Part shown: in pieces, positions 36,001-42,000 of the stretch | Layout of the letters: each line of letters starts with the position of its first letter | Position numbering within the stretch: position 1 is the first letter of the stretch | Assembly (NCBI GenBank): GCA_963514005.1 | Contig: OY740807.1 | Span: 2,294,001-2,358,000, forward strand | Source of the DNA: Raja brachyura | Taxonomy: Eukaryota | Reading direction: 5' to 3' | Length of the DNA: 64,000 bases | Made by a program: the position numbers

Positions 36001-39000
36001 CCTCCGATGCCCTGGAGTGGAACACCTCATCCTGGGAGCAGATGCCGCGTAGACAGAGGAATTGGGAGTGGGGGATGGAGTCCTTACAGGAAGCGGGGTG
36101 GGAAGCAGCTTAGTCCAGATACCCATGGGACTCAGTGGGTTTATAGTAGATGTCGGTCAGTAAGTAGATGTACTGGCCGACACCCACTGACCCCTATGGC
36201 TATCTAGACTGCACTTCTCCAATTCCAGGTAGTCCCTGCTTTCTCCTCACCTTCTCAGCTCTCTTTCAGCCTACTGTCTTCGCCTCTTCCTTTCTTGTCC
36301 CCCCCCCCCCCGCCCTCTGGACCCGAAACGTTGCCTATTTCCTTCGCTCCATAGATGCTGCCTCACCCGCTGGGTTTCTCCAGCATTTTTGTCTACCTTC
36401 GATTTTCCAGCATCTGCAGTTTATTCAGAAACATTCACAACCCGGTGATCAGCTCTTGTGTACTTTAGTGTTCACCCATTAGGCCCTCAGTAGCGAATGC
36501 TTCCCGAGAGATAGCGTCACACTTACTGAGTTCTGAGAACTTCGTTCATTTATAGCGGCAACTGCAAACAAGCAACTGCAGATGCTGGTTTACCATGGAA
36601 AGGCATTGGTAATGGGTCGGATAGCATCCATGGAGAACATGGATAGGTGACGGGGGTACACAAAAGGCTGGAGAAACTCAGCGGGTGCAGCAGCATCTAC
36701 GGAGCGCAGGAGATAGGTGACGTTTCGGGTCGAGACCCTTCTTCAGCGTTTTGGTTCGGAGCTAAATCTGAAGAAGGGTCTCTACCCGAGTTTTCACCTA
36801 CCCACGTGTTCCATGGATGGTTCAGAGCGGAAGAGTCCAGCTCCGTGTTTCGTGTGTGTGTGTGTGTCCCCACCCCCAAATTTGACCAAAGAGCGGCGAG
36901 ATTGTGCATCTGGCATCCAGAGGGAGCGGGGGGGGGGGGGGGGGGGGGGGGTAGGTGGGAAATGGGGAGCAGGATAAACACGTGAGGTTGCGATGGAGGT
37001 AAGGGAGACGGGACGCAGAATAGAGGGACCGGCAGACGGTGGGAGAGGGGGGGGGAAGAGGTCGGTGCGGGACACAGTGTGCTATTGATCAAGAGGAGCA
37101 GAATGAGCCGTTTGAGCGGAACTGGTTGTAGTTGTGTATAAGGCGGCTCCTGATCGCCAGGTCTTTGCGCCAAACCCCTCAATGTACTGCGAGGAACCGC
37201 GTGAAAATAGACCAATGGAATCACACCGCAGTTTTTCCTCTTTATTAAGAGCTGAGATACACCAGATCCAATCACAACACGGTTACTGTCTACGTGGGAA
37301 TCTCCCCCCACTCTGCAGCCAGAGGCAGGAAAACACAGGGGACAAATCGACAAAGAAATACGCACTGATCTCTGAGATAATTACATATTCGTGTTGTTCC
37401 CAGAAGTGGACATTGCTATAGGTTACATTGCTCAAGGTGGCGGCAGACCACAGTGAAGCTCTCTCTGTGTTAAACATAGCAGAGAATTGGCAGCCGATGC
37501 CAATGGCACGAACTCAGTTCGCGCAGGTGGACGACGAGACGGTGTGTCGCAGAGGCGAGCTGAGCGAGCTATGTCCGACGCTGCAGGAATAGCTGGAGCC
37601 CTTGTCCCATGCGGCGGCGGGGACCCGCAGGTAACTGCTCAGCCTGTACGTCTGTTCGGCGTCCGGGGACACGGCGCCCGACGTCACCCCGCTCTCCGTC
37701 TCCACGCCGTCCACGGCCCAGCGCAGCGCCACGAAGCCCGGCTTAAAGCCGCTCACCAGGCAGCTGAGTGTGGCCGAGCCCGTGCCAGTTTCATCCGGAG
37801 ACGGAGGGAGCAGGAGAAGTGAGGGCTTCCGAGACTCGCTACCTGTGTGTGGAGAGGCGGAGGAGAAGAGAAACATTATTAGTTGATGGAGACCGTCGGC
37901 AGCGCCACACACTGACCCCAACGCGAGAGAAACGAACTCGGCCACGGAAAGTGTCAGTGACTGGGCGGCGCGGTGGTGCAGCGCTGGAGCAACTGTCTTA
38001 CAGCGCCAGGGAGCCGGGTCGGATCCTAAATATAGGTGCATGTCTGTACGGAGTTTGTACATTTATCACCGTGACGTGTGTGCGTTGGTTTTCTACGAGA
38101 TCTTCGGTTTCCTCCCGCACCCCTAAGACGTACAGTTGTGTAGGTTCATTGACTTGGTATCAATGTAAAATTGTCCCTAGTGTTTGTAGGGTAATGTTCG
38201 TTTGCGGGGATCTTTGGTCGGTGTGGACTCGGTGGCCGAAGGGCCTGTTTTCGGGCTGTCTCTAAAACTAGAACTAAAACTAAAAGACCGTCGATGACGC
38301 GAACAATTCGTGAAAGTCGAGGAAAAGGACGCGGCTATTGAACCCAGCAGGTCTAAGCCGGCTAATGAAGATTGGCCCAGGTTAATCGCAGCTGTCGCCT
38401 TGCAGCCAACACCAGGCCGAGAGCTCTAAACCCACTTGAGCAACATCACCCCGTCCCGGCCTCGTCCCTCCACCTGGCGCCGCTCGGCTTTACGTCGCTC
38501 TGTCGAGACGACTTCATTGCGGGGTTCAATAATTCCCCAGCTCTGGAATTCGCTTGAATGTGAATTTGCGAATGTAGCTATTTTAGGAGACACAGCATGG
38601 AAACTGGCCCTTCGGCCCACCGAGTCCACACTGACCATTATCACCCGTTCACACTAGTTCTATGATATCCCGCTTCTCACCCACTCCCCGTACACTCGGG
38701 GCAATTCACCGTCGGGCAATTAACCTCCAAACCCGCACGTCTTTGGGATGTGGGGGGAAACCGGAGCAATCGCAGGGAGTCACAGGGAGAACTTGCAAAC
38801 CCCACACAGACAGCACCCGAGGTCAGGCTCGAACCGGGGAATCTGGCGCAGTGAGGCAACATATCTACCATTGAGCCAATGTGCCGCACCCACTTTAAGG
38901 AGTTATGGCGGGAAGTACCGGTACCGGAGAGGCCTCCGGATATCCAACACTCCCTGTCAAGTGACGCAAGGGGAGCGGCGGGAAGCAGCGCGGCTCCGCA

Positions 39001-42000
39001 AACTATTGAGAGGTGAAGAGACGAGGAAGCGACCGGTTCATCCCGGATTACACCCCGAGCCAACACGTCCTTTCCCGCTACACTCTCTAACCGACTTGCC
39101 CAACCCGCTGCACAGTATTCCCCTCAATGTCATTCATCAGAATGCCTGCAAATTGTCTTCCTTGTTTCCCCAACATTAACGCGTTTGATTGTCGCAAACT
39201 GCGACTTGTGTTAACGATGCAGGAATCCCCGCGGGCTAGCGTTCCCCGCAGGCGGGAATACTCTCCCGACCGCTGACGTACGGCGCGGACCCGATGGGCA
39301 GAATGGCCTCCCGCGCCGAGTAGAGGCAGAGCAAGTTTTTCCAGAGCGTTCCCGGACTGGGGAATGAGAACGACTGCAAAGGGGATTCATGGGAACAGAA
39401 CGAGGGAGTCACTTACTAATTATATCCAGGATACCCCCAGGGCTGAAGATGTATCCCACGTTGTTTTCCCACACTGCACAGTAGTAGACGGCGGCGTCTC
39501 TGGGCTCCAGGGTGCCGATGGTCAGGATGTAGCTGTTGGCGGAGGTATCTCTGGACGGTTGGAACCGGTCTGTGATCCCACTGCCACGGAATATATCATT
39601 ATCCGTTTCATACTTTATCACCCACTCTGGTCTCTCCCCGGGACGCTGTCGATACCAATTTACACTGTAACTTGCAACATTTCCGTTCTGCATCCGACAC
39701 TCTAAGCGGACGGTTTGTGCCGCGGAGACAGGTCCGGACGTTGGGGTCTGATTCAGGACTGGGATCGCCAGGAGACCTTCAACAAAACACAATGAAAACC
39801 TTAATCAAAGCCTCAGAACTAATGGACATTCCTTCAGAATGAGATGATGAAGAGTTTCTTTAGTCCAAGGGAGGTGAATTAATTGCCACAGACGGCGGTT
39901 TAGGCCAAGCTAAGGCAGAGATAGATAGATCCGTGTTTCGTACGGGTGACAGGGGTTATGGGGAGAAGGCAGGAGAATGGGGTTAGGAGAAAGAGATAGA
40001 TCAGATAGAGATTGAATGGCCCATCACTTATGGACAGATGAAACGACTGGGTGATCTGGAGCCCACAGAAGGCTAGACACGCGTGGAGCACCGACGATGG
40101 TGGAGATTTTAACGAGCCTCGTTGCAGCTAATCAGTCGTGAACCAACCCGAGTCTCACCTGCTGGGAGCAGCAGCAGAGGCCACAGGAGGTGCAGCGCTG
40201 GGGCCATTCTTCCGGACAGGCGAACACCAAATCTTCAGACCCACTCGTGTTGTACTGCAAAGTCCGGGAGCCGCTCGGGGTCCAGTGTCTGGAAACCAGA
40301 GCCTCTGGTTGTCTTTATTAACCGGAATGTAATGAGTGGGAGGGGCCAGGAAACCTGTGTGGGCGGAGACCGATTTCCGGCGCTTTAGAATCTGCTGACG
40401 GCAAATTCAATGTCGTTTAATTCTTATTGAAATTAATTTATTAGCCAAGTATGTAAACATACCAGGAATTTGATTTGCCAACAACCATTCAAAAAAACAA
40501 CAAGATACATAACCACATACAAATTACACATCGACTTAAACAGCCACCACAGCGGCGTGTGAGAATCCCCAGGGCCACAGCATAAGCGGAGACCCAAAGC
40601 CATCAGTTCAATGTCCGGGCCACACACGCGCTCCTTCACCGTGATGTGACCAGAGTTGTACCGACCGCAGTCACTCTCTCTGCAGTCCCTGTCCGCCCGA
40701 ACCGTCCCGTCCACACTCGCAGACTCCGGGATGTCCTCACGGAGCCATGTCCCTGCAAAACACCGAGCTCACTGAACTCACGGCATTGCCTACGAGTCCT
40801 CACCAGTGCAGGCAGCAAGTCCATCTTGTTTTTTCGGCGACCTCACATTCCCCACTGTGATGGAAGTCAAGTAACTTATCCCTAATTTCCTCCTTTTCTC
40901 CCAGCTCCACGGTGTTAAAGCCGTTGTGCAGACGAGATACGTTGAAGAAGTCGCATCTCCGTCGAGGAAAGAGATAAAAAAAATAGTCCCCCCCCCCCAC
41001 ATAATACAAAATGTATGTACATTAAAAATGTATGTACAGAGGAGATTTACTAGAATGTTGCCTGGGTTCCAGCAACTAAGTTACAGAGAAAGGTTGAACA
41101 AGTTAGGTCTTTATTCTTTGGAGCGCAGAAGGTTAAGGGAGGACTTGATTGAGGTCTTTAAAATGATGAAAGGGATCGACAGAGTTGACGTGCATAAGCT
41201 TTTCCCATTGAGGGTATGGAAGATTCAAACAAGAGGGCATGACATGAGAATTAAGGGACAGAAGTTTAGGGGTAACATGAGGGGGAACTTCTTTACCCAG
41301 AGAGTGGTGGCTGTGTGGAATGATCTTCCAGCAGAAGTGGTGGAGGCAGGATAGATTTTAACATTTAAAAGTAAAGTGGATAGGTATATGGACGGGAAGG
41401 GAATGGAGGGGTATGGTCTGAGTGCAGGTAGATGGGACTAGGGGAAAATAAATAGTCGGCACGGACTGGAATTCCTTAGAAATTTTTCAAAATTCCTTAG
41501 ATTCTGGAGTAGTTCCTGAGGATTAGAGGGTAGCTAATGTAATCCCACTTTTTAAAAAAGGAGGGAGAGAGAAAGCGGGGAATTACAGACCAGTTAGTCT
41601 AACATCGGTAGTGGGGAAACTGCTAGAGTCAGTTATTAAAGATGGGATAGCAGCGCATTTGGAAAGTGGTGAAATCATTGGACAAAGTCAGCATGGATTT
41701 ACGAAAGGTAAATCGTCTCACAAATCTGATATAATTTTTCGAGGATGTAACTAGTAGAGTGGATAAGGGAGAACCAGTGGATGTGTTATATCTAGACTTT
41801 CAGAAGGCTTTCGACAAGGTCCCGCATAAGAGATTAGCATATAAACTTAAAGCACACGGTATTGGGGGTTCAGTATTGAAATGGATAGAGAACTGGCTAG
41901 CAGACAGGAAGCAAAGGGTAGGAGTAAACGGGTCCTTTTCAGAATGGCAGGCAGTGACTAGTGGGGTACCGCAAGGCTCGGTGCTGGGACCCCAGCTATT

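What the first reader, a model, noticed from the sequence alone, without database searches (positions are those of the whole stretch)
37241..40321. Germline-joined, intact immunoglobulin light-chain gene (pre-rearranged VJ, introns kept)
Seen: V runs straight into J in one 360-nt exon (YYC-AVWENNVGYI-FSPG) with no heptamer/nonamer between them. Leader, VJ and C splice in phase to a 245-aa ORF with TATA-like and AATAAA signals, and the introns carry TE insertions. Established: chondrichthyan Ig genes sit in miniclusters, and skate type I (sigma-cart) light chains are reported as germline-joined. Inference: this is a heritable fixed-CDR3 antibody chain made by DNA-level joining in the germline, presumably by RAG, and not a retrocopy. 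It is the only host gene found in 64 kb. The class of gene is known; this copy may not be.
Basis: partly seen in the sequence, partly recalled or inferred. Interest (0 to 1): 0.75.

Follow-up and report, generated by a model that had tools for sequence, protein, structure and literature searches.

The report
Skate germline-joined type I light-chain gene
This is an intact antibody light-chain gene of a skate whose V and J parts are already fused in the inherited DNA, which is the normal and long-known state of this gene family in skates, so it is a further copy of a known kind rather than a new kind of thing.

Summary
On the minus strand there is a three-exon gene: leader 40207-40159, a single 360-nt V-J exon 39776-39417, and a C exon 37842-37514. 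The introns are GT-AG, both in phase 1, and the exon lengths sum to 738 nt, or 245 codons plus stop. No RSS lies in or beside the V-J exon.

The exons score as V-set (2.5e-16) and C1-set (3.8e-21). The nearest named relative is the little skate "type I immunoglobulin light chain", at 86% identity in V-J and 91% in C. A thorny skate model is 95% identical in C and has the same leader.

In print, all type I (sigma-cart, sigma-2) clusters of skates are germline-joined.

This exact protein is absent from the collection searched, so I file it as a new member of a known kind.

Two things are unusual. FR4 reads FSPGG...II, where 29 of 30 relatives have Thr, and there is no canonical octamer upstream.

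Expression, somatic mutation and a RAG origin were not testable here. The joined L-VJ-C protein was deliberately not built or searched.

The parts
40314..40322 (-). TATA-like element (TTAATAAAG), about 107-115 nt upstream of the ATG
   Evidence: Read. It is a one-mismatch match to TATAAA. Function is not shown, and no canonical octamer lies nearby.
40159..40207 (-). Leader exon, 49 nt (16 codons plus 1 nt). ATG at 40207-40205, donor GTGAGA.
   Evidence: The leader peptide is identical to that of Amblyraja radiata XP_032902325.
39777..40158 (-). Leader intron, 382 nt, GT-AG, phase 1. It holds an interspersed-repeat fragment at 39911-40020.
   Evidence: The repeat matches 52384-52282 at 73% identity.
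39417..39776 (-). Fused V-J exon, 360 nt: end of the leader, FR1-FR3, CDR1-3 and J/FR4 in one open frame
   Evidence: Translation. Pfam V-set E=2.5e-16. No RSS. AlphaFold2 mean pLDDT 93. The best fold matches are antibody light-chain V domains.
39664..39687 (-). CDR1, 8 codons (NGNVASYS)
   Evidence: My own IMGT-style count on the translation; coordinates. A length of 8 is the sigma-2 signature stated in PMC5985310.
39592..39612 (-). CDR2, 7 codons (YETDNDI)
   Evidence: My own IMGT-style count; coordinates. A length of 7 is the sigma-2 signature. Kappa V domains need gaps of 3 and 2 residues in this stretch.
39448..39477 (-). Germline-fixed CDR3, 10 codons (AVWENNVGYI), spanning the V-J joint
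   Evidence: The length is the same in 11 of 12 skate relatives, which share the pattern AVWE/D..(V/M/T)G...
39417..39447 (-). J-derived FR4 (FSPGGILDII plus the first nt of the next codon), followed by donor GTAAGT
   Evidence: G114 and I119 occur in none of 30 relatives.
37843..39416 (-). J-C intron, 1574 nt, GT-AG, phase 1, with two SINE-like interspersed repeats (38005-38285 and about 38588-38870)
   Evidence: A (CTAAAA)4 tail lies at 38262-38285. No tRNA was called by ARAGORN or Rfam, so 'tRNA-derived' is my reading of box-like motifs only.
37514..37842 (-). Constant-domain exon, 329 nt including the TGA at 37516-37514. It has both domain cysteines, the domain Trp and a C-terminal Cys.
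   Evidence: Translation. Pfam C1-set E=3.8e-21. 102 of 107 residues match A. radiata XP_032902325. The best per-domain match among solved structures is a lambda constant domain.
37241..37513 (-). 3' untranslated region ending in AATAAA at 37246-37241
   Evidence: exact AATAAA on the minus strand.

Best explanation
This is one V-J-C minicluster of the type I (sigma-cart, also called sigma-2) immunoglobulin light-chain multigene family of a skate (Rajiformes). By sequence it is closest to Amblyraja radiata and Leucoraja erinacea.

V and J were joined in the germline of an ancestor, so the cluster needs no somatic V-J recombination. It is transcribed as L-VJ-C, the two phase-1 introns are spliced out, the leader is removed, and a roughly 225-residue light chain with an inherited CDR3 pairs with a heavy chain through its C-terminal cysteine.

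Diversity in such a system comes from the many paralogous clusters and possibly from somatic hypermutation, not from combinatorial or junctional diversity.

Shown here: the exon structure, the absence of an RSS, family membership, an intact frame, splice and poly(A) signals, and a confidently predicted V fold.

Inferred: that the joint arose once, before the skate paralogs and genera diverged; that RAG made it; and that this copy is expressed.
For: - **Gene model.** Exons of 49, 360 and 329 nt sum to 246 codons. Both introns are GT-AG and phase 1.
- **Domains.** V-set E=2.5e-16 and C1-set E=3.8e-21.
- **No RSS** in or beside the V-J exon.
- **Nearest relatives.** The little skate type I light chain AAA87170 is 86% identical in V-J and 91% in C. 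The A. radiata model has the same leader and matches 102 of 107 C residues.
- **Trees.** Each exon was treed on its own, 31 rows per tree. V-J falls in a 13-row skate clade (SH-aLRT 97), as sister to the other 12. C pairs with the A. radiata row (SH-aLRT 89).
- **CDR lengths.** CDR1 is 8 and CDR2 is 7 residues, the lengths stated for V sigma-2 in all species (passages; my own count).
- **Conserved columns.** All 32 columns invariant in the 17-row alignment are kept, including both V cysteines and the Trp.
- **Shared CDR3.** CDR3 length is 10 in 11 of 12 skate relatives from two genera, with a shared pattern. That fits one inherited joint.
- **Fold.** AlphaFold2 mean pLDDT 93 and pTM 0.86, with the G strand formed. 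Foldseek's top hits are antibody light chains at TM 0.86-0.89.
- **Literature.** At least 89 joined type I clusters, none unjoined, expressed and potentially mutated (abstract). [quoted passage not shown] Sigma-2 is also joined in gar, turtle and coelacanth genomes (passages).
Against: - **No octamer.** No canonical octamer (ATTTGCAT) with at most one mismatch lies within about 300 nt upstream of the ATG. The nearest one-mismatch site is at 40524-40517, and the TATA-like box is itself a one-mismatch match.
- **Odd FR4.** FR4 has Gly where 29 of 30 relatives have Thr and 1 has Ser. It ends in Ile where the 30 relatives have K, N, R, T or Q. This could mean relaxed constraint.
- **No hotspot enrichment.** AID hotspot motifs are not enriched in the CDRs: 1 of 17 hotspot bases falls in the 75 CDR nt (Fisher p=0.22).
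- **No transcript found.** None of the 7 full-length unnamed transcript-like members of the nearest cluster matches this copy, and the exact protein is not in the collection.
- **No read evidence.** Neither germline status nor expression could be examined against reads.
Confidence: 0.88

Rival explanations
1. It is a germline-joined type I cluster, but a silent or decaying copy: an open-frame pseudogene that is no longer transcribed or no longer pairs properly.
For: - No canonical octamer upstream, and only a one-mismatch TATA-like box.
- A LINE-tail fragment lies about 670 nt upstream of the ATG.
- The only two residues absent from all 30 relatives both sit in FR4. One of them replaces the Thr that follows the F-x-x-G motif.
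- No matching transcript-like protein was found.
Against: - The frame is open across all 246 codons, with four canonical splice sites, a good start context and AATAAA.
- All 32 invariant family columns are kept.
- The C exon's five differences from the A. radiata model are mostly states seen in other batoids.
- The terminal branches are not long: 0.089 for V-J, equal to the median, and 0.05 for C.
- The V fold is predicted with mean pLDDT 93.
- I could not read whether other skate type I promoters have an octamer at all, because the text of PMC2192082 is not held.
Confidence: 0.2
2. The assembly captured a somatically rearranged B-cell allele, and the true germline locus is split.
For: Nothing found here. 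It is listed because the window alone cannot show which tissue was sequenced.
Against: - An assembly consensus reflects the bulk of cells, and one B-cell clone would be a tiny minority (inference).
- The literature reports no unjoined type I gene in the little skate (abstract).
- The CDR3 length and pattern are shared with genome-derived models of two skate genera, 11 of 12 relatives. That is not expected of independent somatic joints.
Confidence: 0.02
3. It is a processed retrocopy of a rearranged light-chain mRNA.
For: None.
Against: Both Ig introns are present at the canonical positions: within the leader and between J and C, both phase 1 and GT-AG. There is no poly(A) tract after the AATAAA in the sequence read.
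Confidence: 0.005
4. It is another V-C receptor gene, such as a T-cell receptor chain or another light-chain isotype, and not type I.
For: - NCBI's automatic names for relatives say 'lambda-1 light chain-like' or 'kappa'.
- FR3 aligns without gaps to VH domains.
- The AVWE start of CDR3 recalls TCR gamma V genes (recalled, not tested).
Against: - 86-95% identity to sequences named type I in the little skate and to their thorny skate counterpart.
- The family also holds the horn shark sequences.
- The C exon's best per-domain solved match is a light-chain lambda C domain, with the C-terminal Cys aligned.
- CDR1 and CDR2 lengths of 8 and 7 match sigma-2.
Confidence: 0.01

Closest known systems
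Little skate (Leucoraja/Raja erinacea) type I light-chain clusters (Anderson et al. 1995, PMC2192082; GenBank proteins AAA87170, AAA87171)
   Same: - The same isotype, with V-J fused in the germline.
- The same CDR3 length (10) and pattern.
- The same unusual FSPG in place of FGxG.
- 82-86% identity in V-J and 91-93% in C.
   Different: - The leader is one residue shorter (LLLLPAG against LLLLLPTG).
- FR4 has Gly for Thr and ends in II, not IN or IK.
- In the V-J tree the window copy branches before all 12 other skate rows.
- I saw only the abstract and reference list of that paper, so its intron, promoter and junction details could not be compared.
Amblyraja radiata XP_032902325 (named 'immunoglobulin lambda-1 light chain-like' by NCBI)
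   Same: Identical 17-residue leader, the same 245-aa length, 102 of 107 C residues identical, and the FSPG motif.
   Different: 17 of 119 V-J residues differ: 7 in FR, 7 in CDRs and 3 in FR4. It is therefore a paralog or an ortholog from a related species, not the same gene.
Horn shark (Heterodontus francisci) type I light chains
   Same: The same isotype family, at 60-68% identity in V-J and 67-68% in C, within the same tree.
   Different: - Reported as split V and J with RSS (passages).
- J reads FGPGT.
- I could not fetch the DNA, so the joint could not be reconstructed from split flanks.
Nurse shark germline-joined NS5/sigma-2 chain and germline-joined NS4 genes (Lee et al. 2000, PMC2193156; review PMC5192425)
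   Same: A heritable joined V-J with an in-frame fixed CDR3.
   Different: - In nurse shark only some loci are joined.
- Those genes are expressed mainly early in life, and the sigma-2 one is the preferred partner of IgM1gj (passages).
- Nothing here tells when the skate copy is expressed.
Sigma-2 loci of spotted gar, Chinese softshell turtle and coelacanth (PMC5985310)
   Same: V and J are joined at the genomic level, and CDR1 and CDR2 lengths are 8 and 7 (passages).
   Different: Those species have few loci (two in gar, four in turtle) rather than a large multigene family. They were not compared by sequence here.

Membership tests
Type I / sigma-cart / sigma-2 immunoglobulin light chain | One V-set domain followed by one C1-set domain, with a leader | tested here: met
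   Pfam V-set E=2.5e-16 and C1-set E=3.8e-21.
Type I / sigma-cart / sigma-2 immunoglobulin light chain | Groups by sequence with named type I chains | tested here: met
   The best named hit is 'type I immunoglobulin light chain [Leucoraja erinacea]' at 86% (V-J) and 91% (C). V-J sits in a 13-row skate clade with SH-aLRT 97. Limit: no kappa, lambda or sigma references were in the trees.
Type I / sigma-cart / sigma-2 immunoglobulin light chain | CDR1 of 8 and CDR2 of 7 residues (stated for V sigma-2 in all species, PMC5985310 Discussion) | tested here: met
   My own IMGT-style count on the translation gives 8 and 7 (one search holds the spans). The rule was read. The paper's Table S5 is a supplement and was not seen.
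Type I / sigma-cart / sigma-2 immunoglobulin light chain | Cysteine near the C terminus for the bond to the heavy chain | tested here: met
   The C exon ends ...STCAN. The Cys aligns with the C-terminal Cys of a lambda chain.
Chondrichthyan minicluster organisation | L, V, J and C within a few kb, as a self-contained unit | tested here: met
   It is 2694 nt from the ATG to the stop and about 3.1 kb from the TATA-like box to AATAAA. No second cluster lies in the 64 kb.
Germline-joined Ig gene | V and J contiguous in one exon, with no heptamer-spacer-nonamer between them | tested here: met
   One 360-nt open exon. No RSS in the exon or its flanks.
Germline-joined Ig gene | Genomic introns kept, so not a processed copy | tested here: met
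   Introns of 382 and 1574 nt, GT-AG, phase 1.
Germline-joined Ig gene | The joined form is present in non-lymphoid or germ-cell DNA | not testable with these tools
   No reads or tissue information are available. Support is indirect: the literature and the junction shared across paralogs and genera.
Functional (expressed) light-chain gene | Promoter with octamer and TATA, and spliced transcripts | tested here: inconclusive
   A TATA-like box is present. No octamer with at most one mismatch lies within about 300 nt of the ATG. No transcript data exist for this copy.
Functional (expressed) light-chain gene | Canonical J motif F-G-x-G-T | tested here: not met
   The window has F-S-P-G-G. The Ser is shared by all 12 skate subfamily relatives, including transcript-like ones, so it is tolerated. 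The Gly for Thr is unique among 30 relatives. The motif as a rule is recalled knowledge.

The most novel reading that the evidence does not exclude
This copy branches before the other 12 skate type I sequences. It carries two FR4 residues seen in no relative (FSPGG...II) and has no recognisable octamer. It could be a specialised invariant light chain under its own regulation, for example an early-life, RAG-independent partner of a particular heavy chain, as described for the nurse shark germline-joined sigma-2 chain with IgM1gj. On that reading it would not be just one more member of the diversified repertoire.
Probability: 0.08. Interest if true: 0.45.

Novelty: new member of a known kind. 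Interest (0 to 1): 0.2.

Why it matters
Germline-joined antibody genes are the classic exception to the rule that antigen-receptor genes are assembled somatically. They also bear on how RAG acted in germ cells during vertebrate evolution. That exception has been established for skate type I light chains since 1995, so this window adds only one well-resolved cluster.

What the window does offer:
- exact exon, intron, repeat and signal coordinates;
- a fixed CDR3 shared in length and pattern across two skate genera;
- a copy-specific FR4 variant that gives a convenient diagnostic tag for finding this gene's transcripts.

It is useful for annotating skate genomes, where such genes are auto-named 'lambda-1-like'. 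It opens no new question.

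Tried and rejected
- **RSS remnants.** The scan of 37000-40700 found nothing beyond four weak sites outside the V-J exon, no better than the eight other such sites elsewhere in the window.
- **Octamer.** Exact copies occur only far away, at 17837, 28368 and 43916.
- **AID hotspots.** There is no enrichment in the CDRs: 1 of 17 hotspot bases falls in the 75 CDR nt, p=0.22. This is one sequence, so power is weak.
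- **tRNA or SINE calling in the introns.** ARAGORN gave 0 genes. Rfam gave only two sub-threshold miRNA matches outside the gene, which I take as chance.
- **Antisense and overlapping frames.** Pfam found 0 families in 7 of them.
- **Second Ig cluster.** Nothing was found below E=0.07.
- **Exact-protein search.** Nothing was identical in either the 'longer' or the 'near' length class or among the 13 members of the nearest cluster.
- **Anderson et al. 1995.** Only the abstract and reference list are held, so its promoter, intron and junction data stayed unseen.
- **Not done:**
  - the joined L-VJ-C protein was neither built nor searched, so exons were handled one by one and the 245-aa length is arithmetic only;
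  - no DNA-level comparison with other skate or shark clusters, no dN/dS and no reconstruction of the joint from split genes, because no eukaryotic DNA collection is on hand;
  - Genome contigs (prokaryotes) and the phage, plasmid and E. coli collections were not used, being irrelevant;
  - supplements are closed, so Table S5 of PMC5985310 was unseen;
  - Complex prediction was not used, as there is no heavy chain in the window.
- **Origin of the window.** It is not human.

Full report
**What is in the sequence**

The gene lies on the minus strand. Reading 37000-40600 and its reverse complement gives:

| Feature | Coordinates | Length | Details |
|---|---|---|---|
| Leader exon | 40207-40159 | 49 nt | ATG at 40207-40205, A at -3 and G at +4, donor GTGAGA |
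| Intron 1 | 40158-39777 | 382 nt | acceptor ...TTGAAG |
| V-J exon | 39776-39417 | 360 nt | donor GTAAGT |
| Intron 2 | 39416-37843 | 1574 nt | acceptor ...CACACAG |
| C exon | 37842-37514 | 329 nt | includes the TGA |

Both introns are in phase 1, as in Ig genes generally (that generalisation is recalled). The joined protein was not built, translated or searched, and its length is arithmetic only.

The V-J exon translates without a stop through FR1, CDR1, FR2, CDR2, FR3, YYC, a 10-residue CDR3 and a J-like FR4. The C exon translates to a 107-residue constant domain ending ...STCAN.

**Is V really fused to J?**

I scanned 37000-40700 for the heptamer, the nonamer and complete 12/23 signals. 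No RSS was found in or next to the V-J exon. The four weak RSS-like sites in that stretch (one heptamer mismatch and three nonamer mismatches each) lie outside the V-J exon, three in intron 2 and one in the 3' UTR. They are no better than the eight other such sites elsewhere in the window.

The V end, the CDR3 and the J therefore form one uninterrupted exon. The two canonical introns are still present, which excludes a processed retrocopy.

**Signals**

- AATAAA sits on the minus strand at 37246-37241, 268 nt after the stop.
- A TATA-like TTAATAAAG sits at about 40322-40314.
- No octamer (ATTTGCAT) with at most one mismatch lies within about 300 nt upstream of the ATG. The nearest one-mismatch site is at 40524-40517.

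I could not find out whether skate type I promoters carry an octamer. Only the abstract and reference list of Anderson et al. 1995 are held, although the search index counts the word in its full text.

**What family it is**

- Pfam gives V-set (E=2.5e-16) for the V-J exon and C1-set (E=3.8e-21) for the C exon.
- In the large protein collection, the V-J exon's best named hit is 'type I immunoglobulin light chain [Leucoraja erinacea]' at 86% identity. The C exon hits the same protein at 91%.
- That 90% cluster has 13 members. They include two 1995 GenBank proteins, two little skate RefSeq models, one Amblyraja radiata RefSeq model and eight unnamed transcript-like entries.
- The A. radiata model has exactly the window's 17-residue leader and the same total length. 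It matches 102 of 107 C residues.

I built a separate quick IQ-TREE tree for each exon, 31 rows per tree. The rows were picked by me from the 76 proteins then held.

- The V-J exon falls inside a 13-row skate clade (SH-aLRT 97), as sister to the other 12 rows.
- The C exon pairs with the A. radiata row (SH-aLRT 89).
- No kappa, lambda or sigma references were in these trees. The isotype call therefore rests on the named relatives and on CDR lengths.

By my own IMGT-style count, CDR1 has 8 residues and CDR2 has 7. These are the lengths that PMC5985310 states for V sigma-2 in all species (passages; its Table S5 is a closed supplement).

Against solved structures, kappa V domains need gaps of 3 and 2 residues in the CDR2-FR3 stretch, whereas VH domains align there without gaps. 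The C exon's best single-domain match is a lambda constant domain, with the C-terminal Cys aligned.

An AlphaFold2 model of the V-J exon, made with the 17-row alignment, has mean pLDDT 93 and pTM 0.86, and all strands are formed, including the last. Its best PDB fold matches are antibody light chains at TM 0.86-0.89, followed by nanobodies, VH domains and a VpreB-J surrogate domain.

The window comes from a skate close to Amblyraja and Leucoraja, not from a human.

**How the copy compares with its relatives**

- All 32 columns that are invariant in the 17-row alignment are kept by the window copy.
- All 12 full-length skate relatives read FSPGT after the CDR3. The more distant batoids and sharks read FG.GT, with occasional variants.
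- So the loss of the first glycine of the usual J motif is a trait of this skate subfamily, and it is present in transcript-like sequences.
- The CDR3 has 10 residues in 11 of the 12 skate relatives and 9 in one. They share the pattern AVWE/D..(V/M/T)G...

One length and one pattern, shared across paralogs, two genera and transcript-like sequences, is what a single inherited joint without junctional diversity predicts. That the joint is single and ancient is my inference.

Nine residues of the window's V-J exon are found in none of the 12 skate relatives. Four of them (V22, V52, L89, R92) are common in the other 18 rows, which fits the copy's early branching.

Only two of the nine occur in none of the 30 relatives, and both lie in FR4:
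- Gly at position 114, where 29 relatives have Thr and 1 has Ser.
- Ile at position 119, where the relatives have K, N, R, T or Q.

This could be harmless variation, a sign of relaxed constraint, or a specialisation. The sequence alone cannot say which.

**Surroundings**

tblastn with the two exons and three relatives finds no second Ig cluster in the 64 kb.

Of the 39 open frames of 150 aa or more, I scanned 20 outside the gene with Pfam:
- 8 match reverse transcriptase.
- 2 adjacent frames match tyrosine recombinase domains (2730-3805).
- 1 matches a GIY-YIG domain weakly and below the curated cut-off (35113-35823).
- 9 match nothing.

One of the nine unmatched frames, at 40875-41354 (+), about 670 nt upstream of the ATG, recurs in many diverged copies. 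tblastn gives 25 rows across the window, and the match to reverse-transcriptase-bearing elements such as 14345-14641 suggests a LINE tail.

Seven frames that overlap or lie antisense to the gene match no Pfam family.

Both introns carry interspersed repeats that recur elsewhere in the window. The repeat at 38005-38266 ends in a (CTAAAA)4 tail, as SINEs often do. ARAGORN and Rfam call no tRNA there, so a tRNA origin is only my reading of box-like motifs.

**Comparison with what is known**

- Anderson et al. 1995 (abstract only seen) characterised at least 89 type I clusters in the little skate. [quoted passage not shown]
- Lee et al. 2000 (passages) state that horn shark type I genes are split and the skate homologue is entirely joined. 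For nurse shark NS4 they give evidence of RAG-like joining in germ cells and of expression early in ontogeny.
[quoted passage not shown] It adds that the nurse shark joined sigma-2 chain is the preferred partner of IgM1gj in neonates, and that in clearnose skate sigma-cart dominates lambda in embryo and hatchling.
- PMC5985310 (passages) reports joined sigma-2 loci in gar, turtle and coelacanth.

The arrangement in this window is therefore the expected one for this isotype in this lineage.

**Mechanism, with what is shown and what is inferred**

Shown:
- a self-contained L-VJ-C unit with an open frame, splice signals and a poly(A) signal;
- no RSS;
- type I membership;
- a confidently predicted V fold;
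- a C-terminal cysteine.

Inferred from the literature:
- the joint was made in germ cells by the V(D)J machinery;
- the gene is transcribed in B cells without needing RAG;
- its CDR3 is inherited;
- diversity comes from the many paralogous clusters and from hypermutation.

Not supported by my small test: AID hotspot motifs are not concentrated in the CDRs of this copy. Only 1 of 17 hotspot bases falls in the 75 CDR nt (p=0.22).

**Rivals**

- **Silent or decaying copy.** This remains possible, at about 0.2, because of the missing octamer and the odd FR4. Against it stand the intact frame, the conserved columns and the ordinary branch lengths.
- **Captured B-cell allele.** This is very unlikely, given the shared junction and the literature.
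- **Retrocopy.** Excluded by the introns.

**Verdict**

The kind is long known.

The exact protein is not in the collection searched, so this is a new member of a known kind. Its minor peculiarity, an FR4 reading FSPGG...II, mainly serves as a tag for follow-up.

Interest is low, at 0.2.

Noticed in passing
window 2730-3805 (+): Two adjacent open frames match a tyrosine recombinase: Phage_int_SAM_4 (E=6.2e-05, below its cut-off) and Phage_integrase (E=3.3e-07). This suggests a DIRS- or Crypton-type mobile element. The element type is my guess.
   Followed up: no
window 35113-35823 (-): An open frame with a weak GIY-YIG nuclease match (E=6.5e-4, 20.4 bits against a cut-off of 22.6). It may be the endonuclease of a Penelope-like retroelement. 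The element type is recalled, not tested.
   Followed up: no
window 14285-15765 (-), 21386-22354 (+), 31362-32009 (-), 32682-33776 (+), 48516-49295 (+), 59358-59948 (-): Seven open frames match reverse transcriptase RVT_1, with E from 1e-08 to 1.1e-33. Most are fragments. The window is largely retroelement debris around the single Ig cluster.
   Followed up: partly
window 40875-41354 (+), with copies at 52825-53133, 14345-14641, 49176-49492 and others: A 159-aa frame with no Pfam match recurs in many diverged copies: 25 tblastn rows at 29-93% identity. It probably encodes the C-terminal part of a LINE protein. One copy lies about 670 nt upstream of the light-chain ATG.
   Followed up: partly
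window 38005-38285 (+) and about 38588-38870: Two SINE-like repeats lie in the J-C intron and share an inverted 50-nt core (38215-38263 against 38637-38588, 86%). The first ends in (CTAAAA)4. Copies lie at 50297-50528, 52536-52783 and 47060-46980. No tRNA was called.
   Followed up: partly
window 36928-36951: A run of 24 G, 290 nt beyond the poly(A) signal, gives a proline-rich false frame on the minus strand (36697-37380). That frame has no Pfam match.
   Followed up: no
relatives of the window gene (proteins P0004, P0065-P0075): All 12 full-length members of the skate subfamily have FSPGT in place of the usual F-G-x-G-T J motif. A second thorny skate type I-like model (P0044) and the other batoids keep FG.G. 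I did not search whether this has been remarked in print.
   Followed up: partly
relatives: NCBI's automatic names call nearly all of these type I/sigma-2 chains 'immunoglobulin lambda-1 light chain-like', one 'kappa', and one fused two-gene horn shark model 'gamma-1 heavy chain-like'. Isotype names in these annotations are therefore unreliable.
   Followed up: no
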